Assembly (NCBI GenBank): GCA_017622495.1 | Contig: JAGAQY010000006.1 | Location: 424-64,423, forward strand | Length of the DNA stretch: 64,000 bases | Direction: 5' to 3' | Source of the DNA: Bacteroidaceae bacterium | GTDB lineage: Bacteria; Bacteroidota; Bacteroidia; Bacteroidales; Bacteroidaceae | Shown: in pieces, positions 22,676 to 38,826 of the stretch | How the letters are laid out: each line of letters begins with the position of its first letter | Numbering within the stretch: the first letter of the stretch is position 1 | Made by a program: the position numbers and the translations under genes | Notes under the pieces: generated by a model | Seen by the model: only the letters and a program-made list of their open reading frames with translations | Databases searched by the model: none | What the model was told of the DNA's origin: nothing

Positions 22676-22740
22676 AGGCATTTTCTCTGCATTCGCTCGT
22701 TAAAAACTTGCATTGTCTTCGCTTAATCGAAATTTTGCAC

Positions 22741-22748: not shown

Positions 22749-22773
22749 TACCCATATATAAAAACATAGCATT

Positions 22774-24255
22774 ATGGAACATCAGTTATTCATTTACAAT
22801 ACGCTCACACGCCGCAAGGAGCTCTTCAAGCCCCTGCACGAGAATCATGTGGGCATGTATGTGTGCGGCCCCACCGTATATGGCGATGCCCACCTGGGCC
22901 ACGCTCGCCCCGCCATCACTTTCGATATCCTCTTCCGCTACCTGCAGCACTTGGGCTACAAGGTGCGCTACGTGCGCAACATTACCGATGTAGGTCACCT
23001 CGAGCACGATGCCGATGAGGGTGAGGACAAGGTAGCCAAGAAGGCACGCCTCGAGCAGCTCGAGCCCATGGAGGTGGTGCAGCACTACCTCAACCGCTAC
23101 CACAAGGCCATGGAGGCACTTAATGTGCTGCCCCCCAGCATCGAGCCCCATGCCTCAGGACATATCATCGAGCAGATAGCCCTCGTCAAGGAGATTCTCG
23201 ACAACGGCTACGCCTACGAGAGCGAAGGCTCGGTATACTTCGATGTAGAGAAGTACAACCGCGACCACCGCTACGGCAAGCTCTCGGGCCGCAACCTCGA
23301 CGACGTGCTCAACACCTCACGCGACAACCTCGACGGACAGAGCGAGAAGCGCAACCCCGTAGACTTCGCCCTGTGGAAGAAGGCACAGCCCGAGCACATC
23401 ATGCGCTGGCCCTCACCCTGGAGCGACGGCTTCCCCGGCTGGCACTGCGAGTGCACGGCCATGGGCAAGAAATATCTCGGTGCCCACTTCGACATCCACG
23501 GTGGCGGCATGGACCTCGTGTTCCCCCACCACGAGTGCGAGATAGCCCAGAGCGTAGCCAGCCAGGGCGACGATATGGTGCACTACTGGATGCACAACAA
23601 CATGATCACCATCAACGGACAGAAGATGGGCAAGTCATACAACAACTTCATCAACCTCAGCGAGTTCTTTGCCGGTTCGCACCCCTTGCTCGAGCAGCCC
23701 TACAGCCCCATGACCATCCGCTTCTTCATCCTGCAGGCACACTACCGCAGCACGGTGGACTTTGGCAACGAGGCGCTGCAAGCCTCTGAGAAGGGCCTCA
23801 GCCGCCTCCTCGAGGCATGGGACAACCTCGGCCGCATCGCACCCGCCGAGAGCTCATCGGTCGATGTTACCGGCTTGCGTGCCAAGTGCTACGAGGCCAT
23901 GAACGACGACCTCAACACACCCATCGTCATCAGCCACCTCTTCGATGCCGCCCGCATCATCAATCAGGCCATCGACAAGAAGGCCACCCTCAGTGCTGCC
24001 CACTTGGCCGAACTGAAAGAGGTGTTCGCCCTCTTCCTCTTCGATATCCTCGGCATCAAGGCCGAGCAGAGCGGCAACAACAGCGGTCGCGAGGAGGCCT
24101 TCGGCAAGGTTGTCGATATGCTCCTCGAGCAGCGTGCTATCGCCAAGGCCAACAAGGACTGGGCCACCAGTGACAAGATACGCAACGAGCTCGCTGCCCT
24201 CGGCTTCGAGATCAAGGATACCAAGGATGGCTGCACCTGGAAGTTGAACAAGTAA
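22774..24255 (+). CDS. cysS: cysteine--tRNA ligase
   Basis: HIGH-type motif (GDAHLGHA), the KMSKS variant KMGKS, and the Zn-binding region WHCECTAM. Confidence 0.95.
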
Positions 24256-24270
24256 ATTGAAAATTAAAAA

Positions 24271-25263
24271 TTGAAAATTAAAAATTATAACATCCCGTTC
24301 TTGCTTCTGCTGTTGAGTGTGACATTACTTGTTGCCTGCGGAAGCAAGCAACCCAAAACTTCCACGCAGCCCCAAGTCGCTGTCGTGGTGCCCACCTTCA
24401 ATGCCGACAGCGCCTACCACTACACCGCGCAGCAGGTAGCCTTCGGGCCGCGTGTGCCCAATAGTGAGGCCCACCGCCAGTGTGGCGACTGGCTGGCGCA
24501 GACGCTCGAGCGCTTCGGAGCCAAGGTGACCTCACAGCATGTCACCCTCCGCGCCTACGACGGCACCGTCCTTGCTGCCCGCAACATCATCGGCTCCTAC
24601 AAGCCCGAGACCCGCAAGCGCGTGCTCCTCTGTGCCCATTGGGACAGCCGCCCCTGGGCCGATGCCGACCCCGACCCCAAGAACCACCGCACACCCATCC
24701 TCGGAGCCAATGACGGCGCCAGCGGCGTGGGCGTGCTCCTCGAGATAGCCCGCCAGCTGCAGGCCCAGCCCACCGATATCGGTATCGACATTATCTTCTT
24801 CGATGCCGAGGACTATGGCACCCATGCCGAAGATAAGGAACCCACTGATGGCATCACCTGGTGTCTGGGCTCTCAGTACTGGGCCCGCGTGCCTCATGTA
24901 GAGGAATATATGGCCCGCTTCGGTATCCTGCTCGATATGGTGGGTGGCCGCGATGCCCGCTTCCATCGTGAGGGCTACTCTGATTATTATGCCAAGCATG
25001 TTGTTGACAAAGTGTGGGCAGCTGCTCATACCAGTGGTCACGGAGGGTGGTTCCCCTATGCCGATGGCGGAGTAATTACGGACGACCATCTGCCCATCAA
25101 TGAGATAGCCCGCATTCCTTGTATCGACATCATTGGGCACTATCCCGAGACGGGCTTTGCCCCCACCTGGCACACCATGGACGACACGATGGAAAACATC
25201 GACCCCGCTGTGCTCCGTGCTGCCGGACAAACCGTGATGCAGGTCATCTATAATGAGAAATAA
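24271..25263 (+). CDS. glutaminyl-peptide cyclotransferase (M28-fold lipoprotein)
   Basis: Lipoprotein signal LLVACGSK. M28/QC metal-site motifs are LLCAHWDSRPWAD, GANDGASGVGVLLE and FFDAEDYG. Only a TTG start is available, so the start is uncertain. Confidence 0.75.
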   Translation: MKIKNYNIPFLLLLLSVTLLVACGSKQPKTSTQPQVAVVVPTFNADSAYHYTAQQVAFGPRVPNSEAHRQCGDWLAQTLERFGAKVTSQHVTLRAYDGTVLAARNIIGSYKPETRKRVLLCAHWDSRPWADADPDPKNHRTPILGANDGASGVGVLLEIARQLQAQPTDIGIDIIFFDAEDYGTHAEDKEPTDGITWCLGSQYWARVPHVEEYMARFGILLDMVGGRDARFHREGYSDYYAKHVVDKVWAAAHTSGHGGWFPYADGGVITDDHLPINEIARIPCIDIIGHYPETGFAPTWHTMDDTMENIDPAVLRAAGQTVMQVIYNEK

Positions 25264-25996: not shown

Positions 25997-27898
25997 TTAA
26001 AAGAAGACCTTCTTCCCATTGGTAATGTATATCCCTTTGCCTGCATGCTTGATGGGGCGGCCGAATAGGTCATAAATCTGCATCTCGCATCGAGGCATTG
26101 TTTCTATAGTTGGGTTAATATCAGTCTCGTCTACTCTTTTGATAGCATAAGAAATGGGTGCCTCGTTGGGATTTATGGAGAGGTATGCTTTTCCCGCCTT
26201 AGCTATGAATGCACTCTTAGGTGTGGGATTGTCCCCTATAGCCGTCTTGGGTACATAAAAGCCGACGATGCCATTAAGCGCATTAAGTGCATAGTGCGAT
26301 ACTCCATTGTTGACCTCAGTGTCTTCTGTGTATCCTATGAGATGGTTCCCACTAACATTTTCTGTAGTAGCGTTTGTGTATGATAATGTATAGGTCTTCG
26401 ATGATTGGGTTGTGGCAGCTTCGGACGAATAAAGTATAGCTGCAGTAGAGGAGGGTATGATACCGCTTATTGGGTGCAGTGTGGCAATTGTACTTTCCTC
26501 TATAGTGCAATAATAGGCATTGAGCCCCTCTGGGATATTCACGGGGACGGTGCTGTACCAAGTGGAGTATCCGTATTTGTTTGCTGTAACTTCGATATTC
26601 AAAGATGTGGTGTAATAGGTGTATGCAGAGGAGGTTTGATTGAGTTTATATAGTTGGATGGGGAGACTATTGGAATATAGATAATATCTAAATCTACTTC
26701 CACTTCCACTCTTATAATATCTGATAGCATAATTTTCTGCTTTACCTGTTCCCTTTATATATACACCATTATCCCCATTGTATGAAATGAAATTTACTTT
26801 TGGATTATCTGACGTAGATACTTGATTCTTCATTTCAGTGTTATAAAGGTATTTCCCACTTGTGGACTGTAGGGAATATCCATCTGTCGTTTTGCTGATA
26901 TAGAAAGCTGATGCATTTGTTTCTTCATTGCTTATGATATTATTATCTGAGATAATGACGCTTTTAAAATTTCCAGCAACATCTATATCGTTTAAACTAC
27001 CGTCGAAAGCTACACCTTCGCTTTCACAAACAATGAGGTAGGTGCCGCTCCAATCGCTCTGTTCATTCTCAATCTTTATGTAAGTAGGTTCTCTAACTTC
27101 TTCCTTCTTAGCATATACGGCATAGTACGTTATGGTGTCGTCAATGGTTACAGTCTCTCCTGGATTATTTAATTCTGGAGTCTTTGTTGTCCCGATAGGG
27201 AATGGAGTTGTACTCCAACCGACGAAGTCAAGTCCTGCGACTTCGGGAACTTCAGATGGTAAAGTATAGCTACTCCCTACCTTAAGTGTTTCTGTATTAT
27301 CTATGCTATCAACAGATAATGTTACAGTGCAATTCCTAATTAAATCTGAGTCTGTCAGTTTGTATAATACAATATCTTTTGGTTGTGTGCTTGTTTTATT
27401 GTAACATGAAAATAATGCGTATGTATTATTGTGTCGCATTTCATTGTTTGTGTTTGCTCCTTGAGCTACTATATTAGTTCTATCTTCAGTAATAGTGATT
27501 TCCCAACTGCTATTATTGGATAATGTGTTTTCTGTTCTTAACCAATTCTCTTTATCAGATGCTGCGTATAAATAGCCATCACCTGTATAGAAGGCGTACG
27601 TGTTATCTTTCTTCCCTTTTCTGAGGATGAGTTTTTGTATATCATAGGTGTTATTTGAGGCTGTTTCGACAGAACAAAATATGCCCTCTTTTCTAATGGC
27701 TATTTGGCCTCTGTTGTCGGCTTTCTGTTCTGTGCTCATTGCAAAGTTTGCATTATTGGCAACAATTATGACAGTGTCCCCTACTGACAATTCGGAAACA
27801 TCGGTTACCAATGTCCAAACAGATTCTGCATACGTAGAACTTATATAGCTAAATAAGAATGCGATAGCTATCAATAGCTTGTGGTGGCACTTATTCAT
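25997..27898 (-). CDS. T9SS-sorted surface protein with duplicated N-terminal modules and a Listeria-Bacteroides repeat
   Basis: Trimmed to the ATG at 27898, which gives MNKCHHKLLIAIAFLFSYISSTYA. Two similar modules each end in ..LYKL. A List-Bact repeat is present (FVGWSTTP...ITYYAVYA). The T9SS-like C-terminus is MQIYDLFGRPIKHAGKGIYITNGKKVFF. The gene is visibly AT-richer than its flanks. Confidence 0.65.
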   Translation of the reverse strand: MNKCHHKLLIAIAFLFSYISSTYAESVWTLVTDVSELSVGDTVIIVANNANFAMSTEQKADNRGQIAIRKEGIFCSVETASNNTYDIQKLILRKGKKDNTYAFYTGDGYLYAASDKENWLRTENTLSNNSSWEITITEDRTNIVAQGANTNNEMRHNNTYALFSCYNKTSTQPKDIVLYKLTDSDLIRNCTVTLSVDSIDNTETLKVGSSYTLPSEVPEVAGLDFVGWSTTPFPIGTTKTPELNNPGETVTIDDTITYYAVYAKKEEVREPTYIKIENEQSDWSGTYLIVCESEGVAFDGSLNDIDVAGNFKSVIISDNNIISNEETNASAFYISKTTDGYSLQSTSGKYLYNTEMKNQVSTSDNPKVNFISYNGDNGVYIKGTGKAENYAIRYYKSGSGSRFRYYLYSNSLPIQLYKLNQTSSAYTYYTTSLNIEVTANKYGYSTWYSTVPVNIPEGLNAYYCTIEESTIATLHPISGIIPSSTAAILYSSEAATTQSSKTYTLSYTNATTENVSGNHLIGYTEDTEVNNGVSHYALNALNGIVGFYVPKTAIGDNPTPKSAFIAKAGKAYLSINPNEAPISYAIKRVDETDINPTIETMPRCEMQIYDLFGRPIKHAGKGIYITNGKKVFF

Positions 27899-27924
27899 GA
27901 TATACTTGATTGTTAAATTTTCTG

Positions 27925-27932
27925 CAAATATA
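27925..27932 (-). promoter_or_regulatory. -7 promoter box (reverse complement TATATTTG) for the AT-rich T9SS gene
   Basis: The + strand reads CAAATATA, 27 nt upstream of the ATG at 27898. Confidence 0.45.
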
Positions 27933-28036
27933 CAACATCCCCCAATTATTTGAAAACAATGATTAAAAAACATTAGATGTTCTAAGGGGAATAGATAGAA
28001 AATATGTATCTTCGCAAAAGATTTTTATTCACCATT

Positions 28037-28585: not shown

Positions 28586-28674
28586 GTTTTTAGGGCTTGC
28601 TGTGAAACCTTAATAAAATGGTGGAAATGAGAAGAAATATTAAAAAAAGTTTTGCCACCCGAATTTAAAGCAGT

Positions 28675-28682
28675 ACCTTTGC
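28675..28682 (+). promoter_or_regulatory. -7 box (TACCTTTG) with an upstream TTTTG (-33-like, 28650-28654) for the outer-membrane cluster
   Basis: TAnnTTTG lies 26 nt upstream of the ATG at 28708. The TTTG element sits about 20 nt further upstream. Confidence 0.55.
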
Positions 28683-28707: not shown

Positions 28708-29478
28708 ATGTTTTTAAGAAAAAGATTTGCAAAGGTGCAACTTACGTTGGTTGCTATCCTTGGTTTTTTGGGTGTAGGACAGGCAGTTGCGCAGGATGGG
28801 TTTCGTGTGCCCGCTGTGTCGACCAACTTGATTGACTGGGCACTGGTAACACCTAACGTGGGTGTTGACATACCGCTCACCAATCCGATATACATCAACG
28901 GCGCTTCGCTCTATGTGGAGGCCAAGATGAGCCTGAATGCCAACAAGGCGTATGCACCTGACATGAATTATGAGTATTTCTCGGGTAAGATCGAGTATCG
29001 CCGCCACTTCCGCTTCGGTGAGAACTCTAACGAGTGCTCGCTGATGACGAATGCATGGAACGGGCTGGCCCGCCTGTTTACCACCAAGAAGTACTGGAAC
29101 GAGCGTGTGAACGACCGCCTCAACGACAAGGGACGCAGCTATGCAGGTATATTCGCACAGTATGCGGACTTCTCGATGTGCCTGCCGCTGTATAACTACG
29201 AGCATGGACGCGTGGGACGCGCTGCCATTGCGGGCTTCTCGTATGGCTTCAACAAGCCTTTCTATAACTTCAGCAACAAGTATTGCCTGGAGTGGGAGTT
29301 CGGTACAAGCCTGGGCTGTGTGCTGAGCCAGTATGACTGCTACAACCGCGTGGAGAGCGAGGTGACTGGCAGCGGCAAGTGGTATTACCCAATCATCACT
29401 GACCTGCATGTGTCGCTGGTGCTGCGCAGACAGTCGATAAGTAAAATGTATAGGAAGACCCGCATGACGGACTATTAA
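28708..29478 (+). CDS. DUF3575-like small outer-membrane beta-barrel protein
   Basis: Signal peptide ending AVAQ. The family-typical start of the mature protein is VSTNLIDWALVTPNVGVDIPL. Confidence 0.7.
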   Translation: MFLRKRFAKVQLTLVAILGFLGVGQAVAQDGFRVPAVSTNLIDWALVTPNVGVDIPLTNPIYINGASLYVEAKMSLNANKAYAPDMNYEYFSGKIEYRRHFRFGENSNECSLMTNAWNGLARLFTTKKYWNERVNDRLNDKGRSYAGIFAQYADFSMCLPLYNYEHGRVGRAAIAGFSYGFNKPFYNFSNKYCLEWEFGTSLGCVLSQYDCYNRVESEVTGSGKWYYPIITDLHVSLVLRRQSISKMYRKTRMTDY

Positions 29479-29491: not shown

Positions 29492-30049
29492 ATGAAGAAG
29501 CATATAATGATAATGAAACGGAGCTTGTGGATAGCTGTAGCACTGATGGGGTTGTGCTCACAACCTGTGGTGGCACAGCATATCTCTGTGAAGACAAATG
29601 TTCTCTCCGACCTGGGACTGGTGCCCAACATCGGTACCGAACTGGTGATAGGCGAGAAGACGAGCCTGAACGTGGAACTGATGGGTACCGTAGCAAAACC
29701 CTGGGGACTCGACATGGAGATGGCTATGGGTAGCCTCCAGTACAGATACTGGATATCGAAGCGTTCGCTGACACAGCTCTTCGTAGGTGCAGGACTGAAG
29801 GCCGGCGCTTATACCTATAATAATAAGAACGGTCTGTACAGGGCCGATATGGCTGCCGCCGAGATCGTGGCCGGATATGCATGGCCGCTCTCGAAGCGCT
29901 GGAACCTGGAGGTGCAGTATGGATGGGGACTCCTCATGCGCTATGCCAATGACATGCCTGCTGCCGAGGGTGTCACAAGCCAACCGGGAATGAAGTATGA
30001 CATTGCTACAACGTCAATAGGTGTTAATTTCGTATATATCTTGAAATAA
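29492..30049 (+). CDS. DUF3575-like small outer-membrane beta-barrel protein
   Basis: Signal peptide ending VVAQ. Motifs VKTNVLSDLGLVPNIGTELVIG, LQYRYWIS and WNLEVQYGWG. Confidence 0.75.
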   Translation: MKKHIMIMKRSLWIAVALMGLCSQPVVAQHISVKTNVLSDLGLVPNIGTELVIGEKTSLNVELMGTVAKPWGLDMEMAMGSLQYRYWISKRSLTQLFVGAGLKAGAYTYNNKNGLYRADMAAAEIVAGYAWPLSKRWNLEVQYGWGLLMRYANDMPAAEGVTSQPGMKYDIATTSIGVNFVYILK

Positions 30050-32478
30050 TGAATAACTGGAAAAAGATCGTAGGGTTGCTGGCCATTGTCGTGATGATAG
30101 GCAGTGGCAACGCGTGGGCGCAGGACCACTATGTGCAGGGTAAGGTTGTCAACGTGACCGACGGGGACAAACCTTTTGCCGTAGGTACAGTAAACCTGTA
30201 TTTCGTGAAGAGCCAGAAAGAGGCTAAGGAGGTGGCGCGTAACCTGAGAAAGGACCACCACTACTATGATACCAAGGTGCAGGAGATGCTCATCATACAG
30301 CCTGACGAGAATGGTTACTACGCTTGTGAGGAGGCCTACTCGAATGGTTGCATCGTGGTGGACTATGGTATGGACAACTGTCCCATATTCCCCATCATGG
30401 ACAAGGGTGACCTGGATATCGAGGTTGCCGTGGAGGGTGAGAAGATTGACGAGGTAGAAATCGTGGCCAAGCTGCCCGATGCGGATGTGCTGGAGCCTAC
30501 GGCACCGACACTGATCGGTGACCAGATGTTTTTCACACCGAACTTTGCCGCCCAGGGACACAAGCACGACCGTATCATCTATCAGACGTACGTGACCACT
30601 TGCTTCAGCGAGACGGATACGATACTCGACTACTTTGACCCGGTAATCGTGGTGGGCGACCAGTTTGCCCTCACACAGGAGCGCCGCATGAGCTATGTGC
30701 CCCAGCGCGACACGCTGTATCCCTATACCGACACGACTATCGTGCTCGATGGAGAGTACAAGAAGTTTAGCCGCGACTACCAGTTTACCATGCCCGACCC
30801 CCACGCCTATTACCAGCTCAAGCTCACCAAGGTGACACAGCAGTATCCTGGTATCGTGGAGACTATCGACACGATAGCTTGTAAGTGCCAGCGCGAGGAC
30901 CCGCTGCAGTATTTCCAGTTGGGATTCGCATCGTTTGCCCTGGATCCTCTCAAGTATAGACCCAGCTCACAGCTGCGCGCAAGAAACGATGCCGACACCG
31001 TATCGCTCACCTTCCTCGTGGGTAGCACGCGCATAGACCCCAAGAACCCGAAGAACGAGACGGAGTGGAACAAGATCGTGGATAACCTGAAGGCTATCCT
31101 CGAGACTACAGGCTCGCGCATACAGTCATACGAAATCGTGGGTGTGGCCTCTCCTGAGGGTGGATATCAGTCGAACTTGAACCTCGCCGGACGCCGTGCC
31201 AACTATGCTATCGAGCAGCTCAGGGCGCAGGGATTGCTGAAGTCTACAACTCCTACCGAATGGCGTGGTGAGGTGGCCGGATGGGACCAGGTGGCCGACC
31301 TCATGCAGCAGCGCGACCCCGTGAAGGCTGCCGAGATTGCCGAGATCGTGGCCAACTACCCCACAATAGACGCGCAGTCGGCTCAGATGCGCCGCTTGCC
31401 CTACTACAGGGAGATCGCCGACAGTATATTGCCCAAGTTGCGTTGTGTGCGCACAAGCTGTAAGTATACCGTACGCCGTAACCTGAGCAGTGCCGAGGTG
31501 ATGGAGATATACAGAACGAATCCTGACTTCAAGTTTGAACCTCTCGAGTTCTGGATGCTCATACAGGGTATCAAGAATCCTGAGGAGAAGATTGCCATCT
31601 GCAAGCGCGCACTTGCCGAGATCACATACGACTCGCCCATACGCCCCTTCGCTGCCAATGCCATGGCTCAGCAGAAGATTGACTTGTCGATGATGGATAC
31701 CGTATTGCTGAAGGAGTTTATCTTCCCGCAATATCGTGTGAACCAGGATCTGAAGATTTCGGATACCTATACTAAGATATATAACCCCGGTGAAATCTTG
31801 GGTAACCAGGTATATATGTACCTGCTCAGCAGACGATTCTTCTCGGCTGCAAGCCTCGTACGCCGCCTGGAGAACATTCCCGAGTTTAGAGAACTGTCGA
31901 TGCTGGTTGCCTGCCTCAACGGTTACTACGCTCAGGATCCCGAGGTGCTGAACGCCAACCTTGGCAAGGATGTAATCAACGATATCGTACTGCACTTGGC
32001 AATGGGTGCCAAGCAGAACAAGGGTAAGGTGTCGCGCGAGATGCAGCGCTACCACAATGTGGAGGCCCTGAAGATGATTCGCCAGCTCAACGACCTGCCC
32101 GCTGAGAAACAGGCGCTGGGCTACTACCTCAAGGCTGTAATCTATAGCCGTCTCGACCTGGCTATCGCCGAGGCCAACGTGTTTACAGGATATCTCTATG
32201 AGAATAAGGCTGTAGACTGCCTGGTGAAGTGCTTCGAGCTGGATGAGTCGTTCATCCGCCGATGCCAGGGTGATGCCTATGTGAGAGATTCATACCAGGA
32301 TGGCGACGTACGTGAGAGAGACCTCTATGAGGAGGCTGTGGCCAGATACTACAGATGGAAAGATGGCGACGGGGATCTGGGATATACCGTGTTGGATGAC
32401 ATGTCGGTAGACGAGTTTGGATTTGGTGCCCCCGATCCTACTCCCGAGGATGTAGAAGACTGGGGCTTAACAAAGTAA
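30049..32478 (+). CDS. large secreted protein with central OmpA-like/DUF3868-like motif and helical-repeat C-terminal half
   Basis: Signal peptide ending AWAQ. The central motif IVGVASPEGGYQSNLNLAGRRANYAIEQL is an OmpA-type peptidoglycan-binding variant. It is seen next to DUF3575 genes in Bacteroidales type V pilus loci. The start overlaps the previous stop (TAATG). Confidence 0.55.
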   Translation: MNNWKKIVGLLAIVVMIGSGNAWAQDHYVQGKVVNVTDGDKPFAVGTVNLYFVKSQKEAKEVARNLRKDHHYYDTKVQEMLIIQPDENGYYACEEAYSNGCIVVDYGMDNCPIFPIMDKGDLDIEVAVEGEKIDEVEIVAKLPDADVLEPTAPTLIGDQMFFTPNFAAQGHKHDRIIYQTYVTTCFSETDTILDYFDPVIVVGDQFALTQERRMSYVPQRDTLYPYTDTTIVLDGEYKKFSRDYQFTMPDPHAYYQLKLTKVTQQYPGIVETIDTIACKCQREDPLQYFQLGFASFALDPLKYRPSSQLRARNDADTVSLTFLVGSTRIDPKNPKNETEWNKIVDNLKAILETTGSRIQSYEIVGVASPEGGYQSNLNLAGRRANYAIEQLRAQGLLKSTTPTEWRGEVAGWDQVADLMQQRDPVKAAEIAEIVANYPTIDAQSAQMRRLPYYREIADSILPKLRCVRTSCKYTVRRNLSSAEVMEIYRTNPDFKFEPLEFWMLIQGIKNPEEKIAICKRALAEITYDSPIRPFAANAMAQQKIDLSMMDTVLLKEFIFPQYRVNQDLKISDTYTKIYNPGEILGNQVYMYLLSRRFFSAASLVRRLENIPEFRELSMLVACLNGYYAQDPEVLNANLGKDVINDIVLHLAMGAKQNKGKVSREMQRYHNVEALKMIRQLNDLPAEKQALGYYLKAVIYSRLDLAIAEANVFTGYLYENKAVDCLVKCFELDESFIRRCQGDAYVRDSYQDGDVRERDLYEEAVARYYRWKDGDGDLGYTVLDDMSVDEFGFGAPDPTPEDVEDWGLTK

Positions 32479-32502: not shown

Positions 32503-35376
32503 ATGATGAGATATAAGTATCTACGCAGCTTTTTGATGGTGTTGGGGGTAGTTTTGCTCATGCCCCAGGGTATGCATGCCCAGAACATCGATGATTTTAA
32601 GAAGGATACGACCTCCTTTAACGCTCTGGACCACTTGATAACTCCGCGTTATCGCACGCCCGACAAGCATGTATTTGTACCCGGTTGGCTCAAGCACATC
32701 TCAATGGGTGTGTATACCGACCAGTCGATGCCGTTCATCGCACCGCACCGTAACGACTTCATCTCGAAGTATAACTTCCACTGGGGTGCTTTCGTGAACA
32801 AGTACTTCGACCAGCACAACGGTATACGCCTCAACTATGACTATGCCAACATGGCTCTTGCCGATGACAAGTATGCACTACGTCATCAGCTGGGACTCGA
32901 CTACATGTGGGATATGTCGAACTACTACTTCGGATACAACGAGGCTCGACCCTGGTCGCTGGCTTATGTTGTGGGTATGGACTTCGGACGCAGCTCTATC
33001 GCCGATGCAGGATATTATTATGGTGGCTTGCACACTGGTCTGCAGGTAAGGGCCAACCTCTCGCCCCGATCATACTTCTTCGTAGAGCCCCGCGTATCGG
33101 CATATACCAACAACCATACTCGTGACGACTGGCACAACATCGACGTGAAGAGCCACGTGCTCGTAGGTTGGGGTGCCCGCCTCACATCGCCCTACAAGCC
33201 CTTGCAGTGGACTGTAGACGAGGATACCGTGACCAAGACAGACAACTACTTCATACAGCTCAGCATGGGTGCATTCGACAGCTTTGCCGACATGCGCGCC
33301 GGTGCTCCCGAGATGGGTCCTTCGTTCCACTTCGCTGTGGGTCGCTGGTTTAACCCCAAACTCGGTGTGCGCACATCGCTCTATGCCGAGCAGCTGAACA
33401 GGATACACCGCAACAGACGTGCAGGTGCCATGGTAGAGGGTGTGATGAGTATCCCTCACTTCTTCGGATTCGATATGGGACGCTTCGGCCTTGAGGTGTC
33501 GGGCGGTATGCGCTACGACCGTGTGTGCTGGGCTCTGGGTCAGTGGGGTAGCTCATCGGCCATCCAGCTGAAATACTTCGTGAACAAGCAGTTTGCCCTG
33601 TTTGCCGACGCCAGATACTCATCTATGTATAATGGCGAGCACGACCGCTACGATGAGTATGGTAACTTCAACCTCGGTGTGGAGTTCTACAAGTCGAACT
33701 ACAACCGCTACTCTGCCAAGTACATGACCATGGGCGATGTAGAGTACCGCAGAGGGTTCTTCGCTTCGGTAGCTTATGGACGTCAGTACCCCTTCCTCAT
33801 GGGTGGCGACTGGCTGGCATCTCTGAATCCTAGCTACAACTTCACATTGGGTTATCGCTTCGACGACTACAGTGCCTTGCGCCTGAAGCTCGACAATACC
33901 GAGTATGAGGTAGAGGGCATCAAGTCGAAGACAAACTGGAGCACCTTCTCGCCCCAATACATGTTTAACGTGACCAACTGGTGGCTGGGCAACACCAATC
34001 ACCGCTTCGACCTGCGTCCGTACGCCGGTCCTGTAATCTCGCTCACTGATGCTGAGTATTTTGGTCACGGTATCGAGATCGGTATGCCGGTAGTATGGAA
34101 GGTGGCTCCTGCCATCGAGCTCTTCGTAGAGCCTTCGTACCGCTACATGTCGGGTTGGGCACTCAGACAGTGTCTGCTGTATGACAAGGGTATGTGGAAC
34201 ATGACCGCAGGTATCAGCTATGTGAACGGGCCTCTCTACTTCCGCCGATATATGGAGAAGTTCAACTGGGGTAAGGACTGGTTCGTATCTGTATTCGGCG
34301 GTCTGCAGAAAGACCATAACTCTAACGGATACGATGACGTGATGATGGAGCCCGGTGACATCACTGCCCTGCCTATCGGTAATGTTGCCGTAGGTCGATG
34401 GTTCGGCCCTGTAGGTGCTCGTGTATCAGCCTTCGGTTCGCTCAACCGTACTTACCAGGAGCCCTTCCTGCTCGCTATGGCTTATGCAGGTGGTCGTCTC
34501 GAGGGTATGCTGAACGTATCGTCGCTCTTTGCTCCTACAAAGGAACTCAGAAAGTTTGAGGTCGACATCCTCGGCGGTTATCATGGTAGTGTGCTGTATC
34601 GTCCGCTGCCGCAGTATGAAGACCACTGGGCGTATGCCAGCGGTCCGACTGTAGCTGCACAGCTCAAGTACTATGTACGCGACGGTATAGGTCTGTTCAT
34701 CGAGCCCCGCCATACATGGCTCGGCTATGAGCGTCAGTTCGTCGACGAATATGGTGGTACCATCCCCCACTTCGAGCAGCGCATCACCGATGTTAGCGTG
34801 GGTATGGAAATACGTCAGCGCAACCCCATCAAGGAGGAGCTCAAGAAGAGCTACGCTGGATTCACTCCGCGCACGTTCGTATCGGCCGACTTTGGTTTGT
34901 CTTATCCGATGAACTTCTTCCACGTGAAGCCCGTGAAGGATGTGTTGGGCATCTTCAGTCCGCACGTGGGGCTGGCCGTAGGTCGTGAGTTCAATGCACT
35001 GAGCTCTATCCGTTTCAGAGCTACATATAACAATCTCCAGTCTGACTTCACCGATGCTATTGAGCATGGCATGTCAGGTAGTGTAGAATATATGCTCAAT
35101 GTGACCAACGCAATGTTGGGCTACGACCCCTCGCGCATCATGGATGTAAAGGCTACCGTGGGTGTAGATGCATTGTACTCTACCTACAAGAACCGTACCA
35201 ACCTGGGTTGGCACCTGGGCGCTCAGTGGGGATTCCGTGCTTCGGACAACTGGAAGATCTTTGCCGAAGGTAACGTAGCTATATACCACAAGCCCGAAAT
35301 CGTTGAGGGTATGCGTATCGTACGTGACAATGGTCTTATGCCTCAGGCATCGATCGGTGCAGCCTACTACTTCTAA
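32503..35376 (+). CDS. 957-aa outer-membrane protein built from five tandem small-beta-barrel-like modules
   Basis: Signal peptide ending MHAQ. Five modules of roughly 170-190 aa share a strand pattern. Shared elements include AVGRWFNPKLGVRTS / AVGRWFGPVGARVS / AVGREFNALSSIRF, YMFNVTNWWLG / YMLNVTNAMLG / GMLNVSSLFA, and LFVEPSYRYM / LFIEPRHTWLGY / FFVEPRVSAY. The C-terminus is AAYYF, a beta-signal-like terminal Phe. Confidence 0.6.
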   Translation: MMRYKYLRSFLMVLGVVLLMPQGMHAQNIDDFKKDTTSFNALDHLITPRYRTPDKHVFVPGWLKHISMGVYTDQSMPFIAPHRNDFISKYNFHWGAFVNKYFDQHNGIRLNYDYANMALADDKYALRHQLGLDYMWDMSNYYFGYNEARPWSLAYVVGMDFGRSSIADAGYYYGGLHTGLQVRANLSPRSYFFVEPRVSAYTNNHTRDDWHNIDVKSHVLVGWGARLTSPYKPLQWTVDEDTVTKTDNYFIQLSMGAFDSFADMRAGAPEMGPSFHFAVGRWFNPKLGVRTSLYAEQLNRIHRNRRAGAMVEGVMSIPHFFGFDMGRFGLEVSGGMRYDRVCWALGQWGSSSAIQLKYFVNKQFALFADARYSSMYNGEHDRYDEYGNFNLGVEFYKSNYNRYSAKYMTMGDVEYRRGFFASVAYGRQYPFLMGGDWLASLNPSYNFTLGYRFDDYSALRLKLDNTEYEVEGIKSKTNWSTFSPQYMFNVTNWWLGNTNHRFDLRPYAGPVISLTDAEYFGHGIEIGMPVVWKVAPAIELFVEPSYRYMSGWALRQCLLYDKGMWNMTAGISYVNGPLYFRRYMEKFNWGKDWFVSVFGGLQKDHNSNGYDDVMMEPGDITALPIGNVAVGRWFGPVGARVSAFGSLNRTYQEPFLLAMAYAGGRLEGMLNVSSLFAPTKELRKFEVDILGGYHGSVLYRPLPQYEDHWAYASGPTVAAQLKYYVRDGIGLFIEPRHTWLGYERQFVDEYGGTIPHFEQRITDVSVGMEIRQRNPIKEELKKSYAGFTPRTFVSADFGLSYPMNFFHVKPVKDVLGIFSPHVGLAVGREFNALSSIRFRATYNNLQSDFTDAIEHGMSGSVEYMLNVTNAMLGYDPSRIMDVKATVGVDALYSTYKNRTNLGWHLGAQWGFRASDNWKIFAEGNVAIYHKPEIVEGMRIVRDNGLMPQASIGAAYYF

Positions 35377-35396
35377 GGATTGGCCAACAGATAGAA

Positions 35397-35437
35397 TGAA
35401 GAGGGAGAATCGTGAGATTCTCCCTCTTCATCTTTTG
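35397..35437. terminator. bidirectional terminator between convergent genes
   Basis: Perfect 15-bp stem TGAAGAGGGAGAATC / GATTCTCCCTCTTCA, loop GTGA, with T-rich sequence downstream. Confidence 0.8.
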
Positions 35438-35458: not shown

Positions 35459-36445
35459 TCATTTGTGCTTGGCGAACACGACCTTGCTGCCTTTGACGCG
35501 TTTCTTGTATTCGGGGCGCTCCTCGATGAAAGAGAGGATGTGTCGCTTGCGCTTGTCTTCGTGCAGCTCGTTTACATGGATGAGTATGCCGGTCTCCTCT
35601 ACATTGCCAAACTCGTGGTTGATGGCGGTGCCGAACATCAGCATGGTGGGGGAGAGGTTCATGTAGGCGTTTACCAGGGGAGGTATGTTGCATCCTCGCT
35701 TGCGCACCTCTGCATTGAGTATGCGGTAGTCGAGCTTGAAGTCGTCTTCCACGAACAGCTCTCTGAACTGCTTGGGGTTGTGCTCCAGGAACAGAGGCTG
35801 GTAGGCACTCACCAGGTGGCGGCGGTCGCCAAAATGCTTGTCGAGGAAGTAGAGTATCATGTCGCGGGCAAGCCTGTCGTAGGAGGGGTACATGGTCATT
35901 TTGCCAAAGAAGTACTCGGCACCATCGAGCACTACGGTGAGTGAGGCAAGGCCGTCGAAGAGGTTGTCAAGTGCAAACAGACCCTTGGTGTCGGTACGTG
36001 ATGCCTGATACTCTATGGCTACGAATGAACGGCCCAGTTCAAGGGTGCGGGGCAGATAGTGCTGGATAAACTTCTCGGAGAAGTGGAACATGTGTGAGGT
36101 GGCGAGGATTGGCTGTCCCTTGTCGTCGAACTTGGCATCGGAGCCATGCAGGTAGCGGTATCCGCCTATAATCTCCTCTGCATCGGGGTTCCACACCACG
36201 AGTTGCTTGTAGGGTACCTCCATCGTATCGAACTCATCGATGTCGACACTCATGCCAGTGCCACCGCCACCTGCACGAAAAGCAATCTCGCGCAAGCGAC
36301 CTATCTCCTGCATCACGTTGGGGGCAGTGTGGGCATCGATTATGTATAGCTCATTGCCACCGCGATTGGTGTGTCGCAGGAGTCGTTCCTCGGTGAGTTC
36401 GGATTTCAGTAGTTCCTTACTGATGGGGGCGATAACATTTTCCAT
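35459..36445 (-). CDS. glsB: GNAT-fold N-acyl amino acid synthase (OlsB/GlsB, commendamide-synthase-like)
   Basis: Strong resemblance, from memory, to Bacteroides N-acyltransferases. Recalled segments are IGRLREIAFRAGGGGTG, DIDEFDTME, GRSFVAIEYQ, YFFGKMTMYPSY and IPPLVNAYMNLSPTM. Confidence 0.75.
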   Translation of the reverse strand: MENVIAPISKELLKSELTEERLLRHTNRGGNELYIIDAHTAPNVMQEIGRLREIAFRAGGGGTGMSVDIDEFDTMEVPYKQLVVWNPDAEEIIGGYRYLHGSDAKFDDKGQPILATSHMFHFSEKFIQHYLPRTLELGRSFVAIEYQASRTDTKGLFALDNLFDGLASLTVVLDGAEYFFGKMTMYPSYDRLARDMILYFLDKHFGDRRHLVSAYQPLFLEHNPKQFRELFVEDDFKLDYRILNAEVRKRGCNIPPLVNAYMNLSPTMLMFGTAINHEFGNVEETGILIHVNELHEDKRKRHILSFIEERPEYKKRVKGSKVVFAKHK

Positions 36446-36515
36446 TATGTCTTCGTTGTCTTGCTTTTAATAATCTTGTCATGAATCGCTTACTGTATGG
36501 TAAACGAATGTGCTA

Positions 36516-36523
36516 CAAAAGTA
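36516..36523 (-). promoter_or_regulatory. -7 promoter box (reverse complement TACTTTTG) for the N-acyltransferase gene
   Basis: The + strand reads CAAAAGTA, about 70 nt upstream of the ATG at 36445. Confidence 0.4.
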
Positions 36524-36568
36524 AGGACATTTTTTTATATTTACCTTATATGAGCGGTAAAATGGAGC

Positions 36569-36883
36569 CTATTCCATATAGAATACCTCGGGCAGAGGAA
36601 TCGATACAGGTGAGTTGTCGGGGTTTACCTCCATGATGTCGGCCATGTAGTCCCACCACTTCTGCACGATGGGGTTGTCACCCATGTCTTGCGAACCACC
36701 TTCGCCGCGTACCTTCTGGCAGGCAAAAAGTATGTTGGTGTCTTTGTCCCAATAGATGGAGTAGTCGTAGACTCCGTTATCGGACAGCATTTTCTTCAGC
36801 TCAGGCCATATGGCTGCATGGCGGCGTTCGTACTCTTCCTCGCAACCGGGCTTGAGGAACATCTTGAAAGCTTCTCTTTTCAT
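36569..36883 (-). CDS. rhaM: L-rhamnose mutarotase
   Basis: 104 aa starting MKREAFKMFLKPGCEEEYERRHAAIWPEL, a characteristic RhaM start. Confidence 0.85.
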   Translation of the reverse strand: MKREAFKMFLKPGCEEEYERRHAAIWPELKKMLSDNGVYDYSIYWDKDTNILFACQKVRGEGGSQDMGDNPIVQKWWDYMADIMEVNPDNSPVSIPLPEVFYME

Positions 36884-36912
36884 AATGTATATGGATTAGA
36901 TGTTAGTAGTTG

Positions 36913-38826
36913 TCATTTGATATATGTGCCGCGGAAGTGACCCTTCAGCTCGGGGCCGATGTAGAAGCCTGGCTGAGTGGGCTGGTTGTATGCTACATTC
37001 TGCGTAGCTACACTGATGCGGTATACGGGGTCGTGCATGAAGGTGTGGAAACGGTAGTGGGTAGGGATGGTAGAGATGTATAGCCGCAGTGCTTTGTTGT
37101 CTTGGGTACGCATCAGCACCTCTTCGCGCCAGTCGCCCAGGATATCGGCCTGCAGGCATGGGTTTGACTTGGTGCCGTTGTTTCTCGCACATCCCTCGAA
37201 AGAGGCTATGACTTGGCAACTGTCGGCTTCCCATATGTACTTGCTCACGCGTGTGCCGTCGAGCAGTTCGCGCAGCAGGTCTCCGTCCCACCATACGGCC
37301 ATGTTGGTGGAGAGACCTTTCACCTTAGCGGCAGTGACCTCGCCCTTGAGGTTGCGTATGCCTCCCGATGCCAGGCTCCACATCTCTACCCCCGGATGGC
37401 GTGGGTCTATGTCGGCAGCCATGCAGCGCCCCACATCCTCGTTGCTGGGGTATTGGTGTATGATGCGCCCGGTGCGGGCATCGCGCAAGGTGGAGCCGTC
37501 ACGCCTATTCTCGTGGCAAGCCCATACCTGCAGTGCTGCACTGTCGGGGTAGAAGGCGGTCATGTGGAGTGCATCGCCATGGCCGAGGCCGGTAGAGTAC
37601 AGCCCCTCGCCATTATGGTCTATCGTGCATGACCCGTATACAATCTCGTCGTATCCGTCACCATCGATGTCACCTACACGCAAGTTGTGGTTGCCCTGTC
37701 CCGAATAGTTCTTCCATTGCGGCTGGTATGAGTCGAATACCCACTGCTGGGTGAGTTGCTTGCCGTCCCATTGGAAAGCAGCCAACACCGTACGGGTATA
37801 GTATCCGCGGCACATGATGACCGAGGGGTGTATGCCGTCGAGGTAGGCTACGCAGGCCAGGAACCTGTCAGAACGGTTGGCCTTGCTGTCGCCCCAGTCT
37901 TGTACCTGACCGCGTTGGGGCACGTAGTCTATGGTGTGGAGCGCTTCTCCTGTGAGGCCTGAGAATACAGTAAGATACTCGGGACCGCTGATGATGCGGC
38001 CTTGCATGGGGGGAGTAGGACGCCAACGTCGGCGTGCGGAGTTGGGAGAGGGTGCAGGAGTGCGCATGGTGGTGTCGCCTACAAGGCGGTGGTCGGCAAA
38101 AGCATCACCGATGACGTGTCCTATGCCGTCAATGGTGCCATCGGCAGTGCGCATCACCACTTCGGCTCTGTTGTCGCCGTCAAGGTCATATACCATGAAC
38201 TGTGTATAGTGGGCTCCTGCACGGATGTTGGGGCCGAGATCTATGCGCCAAAGCTTTTCGCCGGTGAGCCGGTAGCAATCGAAGAGAACATTGCCCGTGT
38301 ATCCGTCGTGTGCGTTGTCGCGCGCATTCGAGGGATCCCACTTCAGTATGATTTCATATTCGCCGTCACCGTCTACATCGCCAATGCTTGCATCGCCGGC
38401 TGCATAGGTGTAGGGGCGCCCGTCGGGGGTAACGCCTACTGTAGGGTAGTCGAGAGGAATCTCTATGTAGCCGTGGCTGCTATGGGCTGGTACAGTGTAT
38501 TGCCCATGGGATATGGCGTCAGTGCTTGTCGTTGGGCGCACTTCGTACTGAACATCGGTATCCACGTCGTATGGGTCGATGTAGTATGTCTTGTCTTTCA
38601 CAGGCACCTTGTTAATCTTCTCCCCATTGCGGTAGATGTTGAATGCTACATTCTCGGGGTCGCTTGCCAGGTAACGCCAGGTGACGAACACCTTGTTGTC
38701 TTGACTCTTCACGGCGGCCACTCCACGGCCTAACTTCTCTAAGCGGATGGCGTCAGAATAGCGGGGCTGTGCTGCAAGCAATGTGCAGCAGGTAATGAAT
38801 ATGCCAAGGATAATGTCTCTTTTCAT
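36913..38826 (-). CDS. rhamnogalacturonan lyase (PL11-like, FG-GAP/beta-propeller)
   Basis: Signal peptide ending LAAQ. Repeated Ca-binding DxDGDG motifs (GDVDGDGEYEI, YDLDGDNRAEV, GDIDGDGYDEI) fit the YesW-type propeller pattern. Confidence 0.8.
   Translation of the reverse strand: MKRDIILGIFITCCTLLAAQPRYSDAIRLEKLGRGVAAVKSQDNKVFVTWRYLASDPENVAFNIYRNGEKINKVPVKDKTYYIDPYDVDTDVQYEVRPTTSTDAISHGQYTVPAHSSHGYIEIPLDYPTVGVTPDGRPYTYAAGDASIGDVDGDGEYEIILKWDPSNARDNAHDGYTGNVLFDCYRLTGEKLWRIDLGPNIRAGAHYTQFMVYDLDGDNRAEVVMRTADGTIDGIGHVIGDAFADHRLVGDTTMRTPAPSPNSARRRWRPTPPMQGRIISGPEYLTVFSGLTGEALHTIDYVPQRGQVQDWGDSKANRSDRFLACVAYLDGIHPSVIMCRGYYTRTVLAAFQWDGKQLTQQWVFDSYQPQWKNYSGQGNHNLRVGDIDGDGYDEIVYGSCTIDHNGEGLYSTGLGHGDALHMTAFYPDSAALQVWACHENRRDGSTLRDARTGRIIHQYPSNEDVGRCMAADIDPRHPGVEMWSLASGGIRNLKGEVTAAKVKGLSTNMAVWWDGDLLRELLDGTRVSKYIWEADSCQVIASFEGCARNNGTKSNPCLQADILGDWREEVLMRTQDNKALRLYISTIPTHYRFHTFMHDPVYRISVATQNVAYNQPTQPGFYIGPELKGHFRGTYIK

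What the first reader, a model, noticed from the sequence alone, without database searches (positions are those of the whole stretch)
32503..35376. 957-aa protein made of five tandem 8-strand-like beta-barrel modules
By eye, the mature protein divides into five modules of roughly 170-190 aa with the same order of amphipathic strands:
- Start strand: HISMGVY / IQLSMGAF / FASVAYG / FVSVFGG / FVSADFG.
- Second element: GAFVNKYFDQHNGIRLNY / AVGRWFNPKLGVRTSL / LGYRFDDYSALRLKL / AVGRWFGPVGARVSAF / AVGREFNALSSIRFRA.
- Third element: LDYMWDMSNYYFG / VEGVMSIPHFFG / PQYMFNVTNWWLG / LEGMLNVSSLFA / VEYMLNVTNAMLG.
- Near the module end: YFFVEPRVSAY / LFADARYSSMY / LFVEPSYRYM / LFIEPRHTWLGY / IFAEGNVAIYH.

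The protein ends in AAYYF, a canonical outer-membrane beta-signal.

Single OMP_b-brl / OmpA-N-like barrels are about 180 aa. I do not know of a characterised protein with five in one chain. It would fold either as five barrels on a string or as one very large barrel of about 40 strands. The second outcome would be comparable in size to the largest known translocon barrels.
Basis: seen in the sequence. Interest (0 to 1): 0.7.

Follow-up and report, generated by a model that had tools for sequence, protein, structure and literature searches.

The report
Five-barrel outer-membrane protein, known class
This gene from an uncultured gut Bacteroidaceae bacterium encodes an outer-membrane protein made of five small 8-stranded beta-barrels joined in one chain, an architecture already predicted by computer in 2021 but never studied experimentally, and it always sits in an operon with a likely cell-wall-binding partner.

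Summary
ORF 32503..35376 (+) encodes a 957-aa secreted protein with five homologous modules of about 170-195 aa. Each module has eight predicted strands at equivalent positions, and the chain ends in AAYYF.

Four lines of evidence favour five separately closed 8-stranded barrels over one 40-strand barrel:
- A confident two-module AlphaFold model matches the OmpA barrel, not 14-16-strand barrels.
- Linkers between modules are 17-22 residues.
- Covariation shows a strand 1-strand 8 closing signal inside modules and none across module boundaries.
- Relatives carry 3 to 15 modules while keeping the same partner genes.

The architecture is not new. Solan et al. (PNAS 2021) described Bacteroidetes "poly-8" multibarrels with 2-11 barrels from sequence. 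This protein fits that description as a new member from ruminant-gut MAGs. No member has been characterised experimentally.

Two observations were not found in the searched literature:
- An alternating A-B-A-B-A module pattern that grows by B-A pairs.
- A conserved cassette of DUF3575 barrel(s), a ~680-1100-aa protein with a CarboxypepD_reg-like and an OmpA-C-like domain, then the multibarrel.

The cassette suggests a split-OmpA-like envelope complex. That function is inferred only.

The parts
28674..28681 (+). Bacteroidetes-type -7 promoter motif (TAnnTTTG), 27 nt upstream of the first gene of the cassette
   Evidence: Pattern search. This is a consensus match only. It is the only + strand match between 26802 and 32549.
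28708..29478 (+). Gene 1: DUF3575 small outer-membrane barrel, long form (256 aa)
   Evidence: PF12099 E 2.2e-11. Related to gene 2 by hhalign (95.9%). Present upstream in the close-family loci L001-L008.
29492..30049 (+). Gene 2: DUF3575 small outer-membrane barrel (185 aa)
   Evidence: PF12099 E 7.8e-29. Present directly upstream of the partner gene in all 14 related loci.
30049..32478 (+). Gene 3: 809-aa partner protein with a signal peptide, a CarboxypepD_reg-like N-terminal domain, an OmpA-C-like domain (aa 322-409) and a C-terminal half with no domain assigned
   Evidence: - PF00691 E 1.2e-4 here, and matched by 8 of 26 family members.
- The family profile hits the N-terminal domain of SusC homologs (8aa4_A, E 1.3e-6).
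- PF13715 is found in 4 family members.
- Collinear with the multibarrel gene in every locus.
32503..35376 (+). Gene 4: 957-aa poly-8 multibarrel outer-membrane protein (the finding)
32503..32580 (+). Predicted signal peptide, aa 1-26 (MMRYKYLRSFLMVLGVVLLMPQGMHA|Q)
   Evidence: Read from the sequence. No Cys lipobox is present. No signal-peptide predictor was run.
32680..33237 (+). Module 1 (aa 60-245), type A, strands 66-226
   Evidence: hhalign against M5 and M3. Eight DSSP strands.
33238..33747 (+). Module 2 (aa 246-415), type B, strands 249-397
   Evidence: hhalign against M4: 98.8%, E 7e-16. Eight strands. PF13505 E 0.005.
33748..34272 (+). Module 3 (aa 416-590), type A, strands 418-574
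   Evidence: hhalign against M5: 97.3%. Eight strands. PF13505 E 0.002.
34273..34857 (+). Module 4 (aa 591-785), type B, strands 592-772
   Evidence: Modelled with M5 at pLDDT 83.5 and pTM 0.72.
34858..35373 (+). Module 5 (aa 786-957), type A, strands 790-956, ending in the beta-signal-like S-I-G-A-A-Y-Y-F
   Evidence: PF13505 E 7.4e-5. 114 of 163 family proteins end in F.
35396..35431 (.). 16-17-bp hairpin terminator, readable on both strands, 20 nt after the stop codon
   Evidence: This is a consensus scan. The next gene (35459..36445) is on the opposite strand.

Best explanation
**Structure**
- Gene 4 encodes a Sec-exported outer-membrane protein.
- It folds into five separately closed 8-stranded OmpA-N/OMP_b-brl-type beta-barrels, in the order A-B-A-B-A.
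- The barrels are joined by periplasmic linkers of 17-22 residues.
- It fits the description of the "poly-8 multibarrel" class predicted for Bacteroidetes by Solan et al. 2021.

**Assembly (inferred)**
- Each module carries its own beta-signal-like last strand: a conserved Gly followed three residues later by an aromatic or hydrophobic residue (modules 2-5; Leu at +4 in module 1).
- The barrels are therefore probably inserted one by one by BAM.
- 8-stranded barrels of this type normally act as membrane anchors rather than channels, and each module keeps conserved Arg (S3), Gln (S6) and Glu/Asp (S7) residues that could line the interior as in OmpA. I therefore expect anchors here. Neither the side-chain orientation nor the absence of a channel was tested.

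**Function (inferred from context, not shown)**
- The protein probably serves as a multivalent outer-membrane anchor.
- Its conserved periplasmic face consists of the helix-bearing turn between strands 4 and 5 plus the linkers.
- That face would work with the co-transcribed periplasmic partner, which carries an OmpA-C-like peptidoglycan-binding domain, and with one or two DUF3575 barrels.
- The result would be a "split OmpA" envelope complex in which the barrels and the wall-binding domain lie on separate chains.

My confidence is about 0.85 for the five-barrel structure and class, and about 0.3 for the tether or platform function.
For: **Modules**
- The modules are homologous.
- Each has 8 predicted strands.

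**Two-module AlphaFold model (aa 586-957)**
- pLDDT is 83.5 and pTM 0.72.
- Foldseek alignments to 14-16-strand barrels do not superimpose: TMq 0.14-0.27, rmsd 17-25 A.
- The OmpA transmembrane barrel 9fzc_A aligns over 185 columns with TMt 0.55 and rmsd 6.1 A.

**Linkers**
- Linkers are 22, 20, 17 and 17 residues.
- This matches the 22 +/- 13 reported for multibarrels. An engineered fusion of two barrels into one used a 2-residue linker.

**Covariation on 420 adjacent module pairs**
- The strand 1-strand 8 closure ladders score 2.52 and 2.23, above all 103 control strand pairs (maximum 2.19).
- The cross-boundary hairpin S8(i)-S1(i+1) scores 1.30, which 25 of 103 controls reach.
- All 14 hairpins within modules score 2.5-5.7.
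- In the single-module analysis, closure ranks 1 of 21 non-adjacent strand pairs.

**Module number**
- Relatives carry 3 to 15 modules.
- Close orthologs at 63-65% identity carry 3, 5 or 7 modules while the partner stays at about 810-825 aa.

**Context**
- The cassette is collinear in all 14 fetched loci, including homologs at 22-25% identity, and the flanking genes differ.
- Partner domains.
- Predicted periplasmic turns and linkers are more conserved than extracellular loops (entropy 1.00 against 1.48, p 3e-8). Extracellular loops are only 2-18 residues.
Against: **Structure**
- No model coordinates could be inspected, so barrel closure rests on Foldseek scores and covariation.
- The full-length model is only moderate (pLDDT 68, pTM 0.37, 13 sequences). 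Its Foldseek hits are uninformative (TMq at most 0.11).
- A two-module fragment cannot form a 40-strand barrel, so that test only excludes an 8+8 to 16 fusion.
- The first covariation pass gave a weak closure signal: 10 of 103 controls reached it, and it ranked 7 of 21. The clear signal came only after I rebuilt the module HMM and kept modules with ungapped S1 and S8. That choice was made after seeing the first result.

**Function**
- There are no experimental data on any member.
- The OmpA-C match in this window's partner is below Pfam's cut-off (22.8 against 27.2 bits).
- No interaction was modelled.
- Conserved turns and variable loops are common in outer-membrane proteins generally.
Confidence: 0.6

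Rival explanations
1. The 40 strands form a single giant barrel, comparable to or larger than the 36-strand SprA. The 809-aa partner might act as a plug or cap.
For: - The strands form a continuous up-down meander of 40.
- Solan et al. predicted single barrels of 38 and 40 strands in other families.
- Fusing two OmpX barrels can give one larger barrel.
- The full-length model has low pTM, so it does not settle the arrangement.
Against: - Linkers are 17-22 residues, against 2-4 residues for turns T1 and T3 within modules.
- The two-module model does not superimpose on 14-16-strand barrels but does on OmpA.
- There is no covariation across module boundaries, while an intra-module closure signal is present.
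- Module number varies from 3 to 15 with a partner of similar size. This would imply barrels of 24 to 120 strands.
- The chain contains no plug domain.
Confidence: 0.05
2. The structure is the same (five barrels), but the function is surface adhesion. Many adjacent barrels would present repeated loops that bind repetitive gut polysaccharides or host surfaces with high avidity. This is the hypothesis of Solan et al.
For: - Solan et al. proposed it for gut Bacteroides and Prevotella poly-8 proteins.
- The organism is a gut (ruminant rectum) Bacteroidaceae.
- Extracellular loops vary between orthologs, as expected for surface-exposed parts.
- Module number varies rapidly.
Against: - Predicted extracellular loops are very short (2-18 residues) and poorly conserved.
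- The longest conserved non-strand elements lie on the predicted periplasmic side.
- The conserved operon partner carries an OmpA-C-like domain rather than adhesin or glycan-binding domains.
Confidence: 0.2
3. The cassette is an accessory module of type V (Mfa/Fim-like) pili or another surface-filament system. The barrels would serve as the outer-membrane platform.
For: - In L011 and L012 the cassette lies directly downstream of a cluster of Mfa_like_1 genes, and that cluster itself begins with a DUF3575 gene.
- From my own recollection, not tested here, DUF3575 genes often head fimbrial loci in Bacteroidales.
Against: - No Mfa/Fim-like gene was called next to the cassette in L001/L002, L003/L004, L009, L010 or L013/L014, and none was seen among the window genes scanned. 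L005-L008 were not checked for such genes.
- The flanks differ from locus to locus.
- The association is seen in only one lineage.
Confidence: 0.1

Closest known systems
Bacteroidetes poly-8 multibarrel superfamily (Solan, Pereira, Lupas, Kolodny, Ben-Tal, PNAS 2021; PMC8346858)
   Same: - Tandem full-length 8-stranded outer-membrane barrels in one chain.
- Linkers of about 20 residues.
- All named relatives come from Bacteroidales or Bacteroidaceae, matching the Bacteroidetes-only distribution.
- Module number changes by amplification and deletion.
- No helical linker domain, so it resembles their first superfamily rather than the second.
   Different: - I could not check whether this family is among their 28 MB-families.
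- It occurs only in uncultured ruminant and gut MAGs: 17 close relatives in 5.8 billion proteins.
- Relatives found here reach 15 modules (P0037, 2889 aa). Their reported maximum is 11.
- They did not report the A/B alternation or the conserved operon.
OmpA (E. coli) and OmpA-like proteins
   Same: - The barrel fold is 8-stranded (9fzc_A: TMt 0.55, rmsd 6.1 A).
- The conserved Arg, Gln and Glu/Asp residues in strands may line the interior as in OmpA. This is inferred.
- A peptidoglycan-binding OmpA-C-like domain is part of the system.
   Different: - There are five barrels per chain instead of one.
- The OmpA-C-like domain is not in the same chain. It sits in the neighbouring 809-aa protein.
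- Extracellular loops are much shorter.
- There is no sequence hit to any PDB chain.
Pfam PF13505 OMP_b-brl
   Same: The whole protein scores 37.8 bits against a cut-off of 28.7, in 3 stretches. Modules 2, 3 and 5 each match weakly.
   Different: - No single module reaches the cut-off on its own.
- Modules 1 and 4 give no hit at E up to 1.
- The family model describes single barrels.
Giant single-barrel translocons (36-strand SprA, 26-strand LptD) and the predicted 38- and 40-strand families
   Same: The total strand count is about 40, and the organism is a Bacteroidetes.
   Different: - There is no 3D similarity (TMq at most 0.11, rmsd above 30 A to LptD).
- The chain has a modular repeat with long linkers.
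- It has no plug or cap domain.
- Module number is variable.
DUF3575 (PF12099) small barrels encoded in the same operon
   Same: They are small predicted outer-membrane barrels of similar size and are co-transcribed.
   Different: No relationship to the modules is detectable (hhalign probability about 1% or less). The modules did not arise by duplicating the neighbouring gene.

Membership tests
Poly-8 multibarrel OMBB (Solan et al. 2021) | Two or more non-overlapping full-length matches to 8-stranded outer-membrane barrels in one chain | tested here: met
   - There are five modules with 8 strands each.
- Modules are related to each other by hhalign and HMM.
- PF13505 matches in 3 stretches.
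- The OmpA barrel is a structural match.
Poly-8 multibarrel OMBB (Solan et al. 2021) | Extended linkers (median 22 +/- 13 residues) separating the barrels | tested here: met
   Linkers are 22, 20, 17 and 17 residues.
Poly-8 multibarrel OMBB (Solan et al. 2021) | Each barrel closes on itself: a first-last strand contact signal and no fusion into a larger barrel | tested here: met
   - In the refined covariation analysis, closure exceeds all 103 controls in both modules, and the fusion hairpin is at background. Closure ranks 1 of 21 in the single-module analysis.
- The two-module AlphaFold model with Foldseek agrees.
- Caveat: the first covariation pass was weak, and no coordinates were inspected.
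Poly-8 multibarrel OMBB (Solan et al. 2021) | Confined to Bacteroidetes | tested here: met
   The four genome loci are all Bacteroidaceae MAGs. All named cluster members are Bacteroidales or Bacteroidaceae.
Poly-8 multibarrel OMBB (Solan et al. 2021) | Sequence membership in one of their 28 listed MB-families | not testable with these tools
Pfam PF13505 OMP_b-brl | Whole-protein score at or above the gathering cut-off (28.7 bits) | tested here: met
   The whole protein scores 37.8 bits, E 2.9e-9. Single modules score only 17.5-23.4 bits.
OmpA family (barrel plus OmpA-C domain in one chain) | C-terminal OmpA-C (PF00691) peptidoglycan-binding domain in the same polypeptide | tested here: not met
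   The 957-aa protein has no PF00691 hit at E up to 1. The domain is in the neighbouring 809-aa protein.
Single giant barrel translocon (SprA/LptD-like, or the predicted 38- and 40-strand families) | One continuous sheet with short turns throughout and a lumen closed by a plug or partner | tested here: not met
   - Linkers are 17-22 residues at every eighth strand.
- There is no cross-boundary covariation.
- TMq is at most 0.11 to LptD and TonB-dependent transporter barrels.
- Relatives carry 3 to 15 modules.
DUF3575 (PF12099) | Match of the modules to the DUF3575 profile or to the operon's DUF3575 proteins | tested here: not met
   There is no PF12099 hit. hhalign probability is 0.7-1.1%.
BAM-dependent outer-membrane protein | N-terminal signal peptide and a C-terminal beta-signal ending in an aromatic residue | tested here: met
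   - The N-terminus is MMRYKYLRSFLMVLGVVLLMPQGMHA|Q and the C-terminus is S-I-G-A-A-Y-Y-F.
- 114 of 163 relatives end in F.
- Both were read from the sequence. No dedicated predictor was run and there are no experimental data.

The most novel reading that the evidence does not exclude
The conserved cassette may encode a previously unrecognised Bacteroidales envelope complex. The cassette is DUF3575 barrel(s), a periplasmic protein with a CarboxypepD_reg-like and an OmpA-C-like domain, then a poly-8 multibarrel.

In this reading, a string of 3 to 15 covalently linked barrels forms a multivalent outer-membrane raft. The raft is tied to peptidoglycan in trans by the partner, giving a "split, multimerised OmpA". 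The number of barrels would be tuned by duplication of B-A pairs.

It would also be a natural test case for how BAM inserts several barrels from one chain.
Probability: 0.3. Interest if true: 0.6.

Novelty: new member of a known kind. Interest (0 to 1): 0.4.

Why it matters
I found no experimental structure or functional study of any multi-barrel outer-membrane chain. How BAM handles several barrels in one polypeptide is an open question that Solan et al. raised themselves.

This family offers a compact, well-delimited five-barrel example:
- Natural 3-, 5- and 7-barrel orthologs exist for comparison.
- Every barrel has a beta-signal-like last strand.
- The conserved operon gives a concrete functional hypothesis, a peptidoglycan-linked envelope complex, that can be tested by pull-down and deletion.

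As an architecture, however, it is already in the literature. The finding is a useful example rather than a discovery.

Tried and rejected
- **Self-BLASTP of the protein.** It found no internal hits. The repeats are too diverged, so profile methods were needed.
- **Sequence searches of the PDB.** The family profile gave no hit. The partner as a single sequence gave no hit.
- **Foldseek with the full-length model.** It returned only long 3Di alignments to large barrels, with TMq at most 0.11. These say nothing on 5x8 against 1x40.
- **First covariation pass.** Closure was weak or not significant. It was superseded by the refined alignment. Both passes are reported because the refinement was chosen after seeing the first result.
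- **Modules derived from the neighbouring DUF3575 genes.** Rejected.
- **Sigma-70 promoter scan.** It found no more sites than in shuffled sequence, and this consensus is not suited to Bacteroidetes.
- **NCBIfam.** There was no hit for the multibarrel.
- **Literature searches.** I found no experimental follow-up on Bacteroidetes multibarrels and no functional study of DUF3575.
- **Model coordinates.** They are not exposed, so I could not count hydrogen bonds across the S1-S8 seams.
Full report
**1. The observation**

The ORF 32503..35376 (+) encodes 957 aa.

Self-BLASTP finds nothing, but profile methods do. I cut an alignment of homologs (A1) into five module sub-alignments: aa 60-245, 246-415, 416-590, 591-785 and 786-957. 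hhalign on these gives:
- M2~M4: 98.8%, E 7e-16.
- M3~M5: 97.3%, E 8e-11.
- M1~M5: 80%, E 1.6e-6.
- M1~M3 and M2~M5: E about 2e-4.

HMMs of each module hit the other modules of the same type at E 1e-5 to 1e-12. The chain is therefore an alternating A-B-A-B-A array.

Pfam reports PF13505 OMP_b-brl in three stretches, 37.8 bits against a cut-off of 28.7. Single modules match only weakly.

**2. Secondary structure and module signature**

AlphaFold2 on the full chain (13 sequences; pLDDT 68, pTM 0.37) gives 40 strands, exactly eight per module. Connections between modules are 22, 20, 17 and 17 residues. The strands of all five modules map to the same columns of a single module HMM.

Across 716 modules taken from 163 related proteins, a common signature appears:
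- Gly in S1, S2, S5 (99%), S6 and S8 (92%).
- Arg in S3 (91%).
- Glu-Pro in S7 (91% and 86%).
- A Gly...Arg turn after S4.

The Gly and Arg positions are kept in all five window modules. The S7 position is acidic in all five (Asp in M2), and Pro follows it in M1, M3 and M4.

Each last strand carries Gly followed three residues later by an aromatic or hydrophobic residue in M2-M5 (Leu at +4 in M1). The final strand reads S-I-G-A-A-Y-Y-F. Of the 163 relatives, 114 end in F. The N-terminus reads as a type I signal peptide, MMRYKYLRSFLMVLGVVLLMPQGMHA|Q. I read this from the sequence and ran no predictor.

**3. Five barrels or one?**

Evidence for five separate barrels:

(a) *Two-module model.* A model of M4-M5 was built with 22 B-A pair fragments (A3). 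It is confident: pLDDT 83.5, pTM 0.72, 16 strands. Foldseek alignments of this model to 14-16-strand barrels (OmpG, FadL, OmpF) do not superimpose, with TMq 0.14-0.27 and rmsd 17-25 A. The OmpA transmembrane barrel (9fzc_A) aligns over 185 columns with TMt 0.55 and rmsd 6.1 A. The model is therefore 8+8, not 16.

(b) *Linker length.* The linkers of 17-22 residues fit the 22 +/- 13 reported for multibarrels. The engineered OmpX-OmpX fusion into one barrel used a 2-residue linker.

(c) *Covariation.* I ran mean-field DCA on modules extracted from 163 family proteins.
- First pass: all 14 intra-module hairpins were recovered (ladder scores 2.7-6.0; controls had mean 1.15, maximum 2.76). The cross-boundary hairpin S8(i)-S1(i+1) was at background (0.78). 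The S1-S8 closure was only weakly raised: 1.58 and 1.60, which 10 of 103 controls reached, and rank 7 of 21 in the single-module analysis.
- Second pass: I rebuilt the module HMM from the whole family and kept only modules with ungapped S1 and S8. Closure then ranked first of 21 non-adjacent strand pairs (3.30 against 2.61 for the next). In 420 adjacent pairs it exceeded all 103 controls in both modules (2.52 and 2.23 against a maximum of 2.19). The fusion hairpin stayed at background (1.30, which 25 of 103 controls reached).
- The refinement was chosen after the weak first result, so I treat this as supportive, not decisive.

(d) *Module number.* In the family it runs 3 (16 proteins), 4 (27), 5 (61), 6 (7), 7 (39) and up to 15. 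Close orthologs at 63-65% identity have 3 (M1-M3), 5 or 7 (M1-M5 plus an extra M4'-M5') modules, while the partner gene stays at about 810-825 aa. A single barrel whose strand count jumps by 16 between orthologs is implausible.

Foldseek on the full-length model was uninformative (TMq at most 0.11). I could not inspect coordinates.

**4. Context**

The gene is the last of a tight four-gene operon:
- Gene 1, DUF3575 (28708-29478, 256 aa).
- Gene 2, DUF3575 (29492-30049, 185 aa).
- Gene 3, an 809-aa protein (30049-32478).
- Gene 4, the multibarrel.

The gaps between genes are 13, -1 and 24 nt. A TAnnTTTG motif lies at 28674, and a strong hairpin terminator lies at 35396-35431.

The order DUF3575, partner, multibarrel is collinear in all 14 fetched loci, and the flanking genes differ. 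These loci include:
- Homologs only 22-25% identical (L009, L010).
- Loci reached through the partner protein, whose downstream genes proved to be 3- and 4-module members (L011, L013).

The partner family carries three recognisable parts:
- A signal peptide.
- An N-terminal CarboxypepD_reg-like domain, like the N-terminal extension of SusC homologs (8aa4_A, E 1.3e-6; PF13715 in some members).
- An OmpA-C-like domain (aa 322-409; PF00691 in 8 of 26 members, best E 4e-7).

The C-terminal half of the partner has no assigned domain. The modules are not detectably related to the DUF3575 neighbours.

**5. Which face is conserved**

I assume the usual topology, with the N-terminus in the periplasm.
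- Predicted extracellular loops are short (2-18 residues) and variable (mean entropy 1.48).
- Periplasmic turns and linkers are more conserved (1.00; Mann-Whitney p 3e-8).
- The most conserved of these is the 10-13-residue strand 4-5 turn, which carries a short helix in four of the five modules and the motif N-[VL]-[TS]-N...G in the A-type modules. Its entropy (0.82) is below that of the strands (0.98).

This argues against a loop-based adhesin and for a periplasm-facing role. The pattern is common among outer-membrane proteins, so the argument is weak.

**6. Distribution**
- There are only 17 close relatives among 5.8 billion proteins.
- Four genome loci were found, all Bacteroidaceae MAGs from cattle, sheep, buffalo and another gut sample. 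The closest is 93% identical.
- A profile search of 1.84 billion representatives finds 492 proteins at E up to 1e-3 and 158 at E up to 1e-30. They are 420-2889 aa long with 2-12 matched stretches.
- All named cluster members are "hypothetical protein" from Bacteroidales or Bacteroidaceae MAGs.

**7. Comparison with what is known**

Solan et al. (PNAS 2021, PMC8346858) described 34 multibarrel architectures from sequence and contact maps. These include a Bacteroidetes-only poly-8 superfamily of 289 proteins with 2-11 barrels, mainly from Prevotella and Bacteroides. They also described amplification and deletion of barrels, and proposed adhesion by avidity.

They did not report the operon context. 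I found no experimental follow-up and no functional study of DUF3575.

The protein here fits that class on every feature I could test. It is not an OmpA family member in the strict sense, because it has no OmpA-C domain in the chain. It is not a giant single-barrel translocon.

**8. Verdict**

The protein is a five-barrel poly-8 multibarrel and a new member of a computationally known kind (confidence about 0.85).

The function is unknown. My best inference, at about 0.3, is a multivalent outer-membrane anchor working with a peptidoglycan-binding partner.

The overall interest is moderate. The architecture is published, but the family is a clean experimental entry point, and the conserved cassette is a new and testable lead.

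Noticed in passing
window 25997-27973 (-): - A 658-aa ORF lies in an AT-rich island (GC 0.38 against about 0.52 around it).
- It has no Pfam or PADLOC hit.
- It has a hydrophobic N-terminal segment.
- Its C-terminus (…IYDLFGRPIKHAGKGIYITNGKKVFF) looks to me like a type IX secretion C-terminal sorting domain. That reading is from memory and was not tested.
   Followed up: partly
L011 1-12156 and L012 (uncultured Mediterranea-like contigs): The DUF3575, partner and 3-module multibarrel cassette sits directly downstream of a cluster of Mfa_like_1 (type V pilin-like) genes. That cluster itself starts with another DUF3575 gene. This is a possible link between the cassette and fimbrial loci, seen in this lineage only.
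   Followed up: partly
P0037 (2889 aa), P0030 (2559 aa), P0020 (2427 aa): Relatives carry 15, 14 and 12 module matches respectively. This exceeds the maximum of 11 barrels per chain reported by Solan et al. 2021.
   Followed up: partly
window 32503-35376, with orthologs in L003 and L007: - Modules alternate between two types (A-B-A-B-A).
- Orthologs at 63-65% identity have 3 (A-B-A) or 7 (A-B-A-B-A-B-A) modules, so the unit of gain and loss is a B-A pair.
- Odd module numbers dominate the wider family: 3, 5 and 7 account for 116 of 163 proteins.
   Followed up: yes
P0010 (988 aa; ortholog at 50% identity): This protein continues about 25 residues past the conserved ...TTYYF terminus, ending ...KYMIIKVLH. 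The beta-signal would then be internal. This may be a lost stop codon or an assembly or gene-calling error.
   Followed up: no
window 19253-25263: A stretch with higher GC (0.56-0.60) holds three genes: a 1121-aa protein with an endonuclease/exonuclease/phosphatase domain, cysteinyl-tRNA synthetase and an M28 peptidase. The composition shift next to the AT-rich island at 26-28 kb is unexplained.
   Followed up: no
window 35459-38826 (-): Downstream on the opposite strand lie a GNAT-like Acetyltransf_5 protein (35459-36445) and a rhamnogalacturonan lyase of family 11 (36913-38826; PF21348 E 1.6e-219). This is consistent with a pectin-degrading gut Bacteroidaceae.
   Followed up: no
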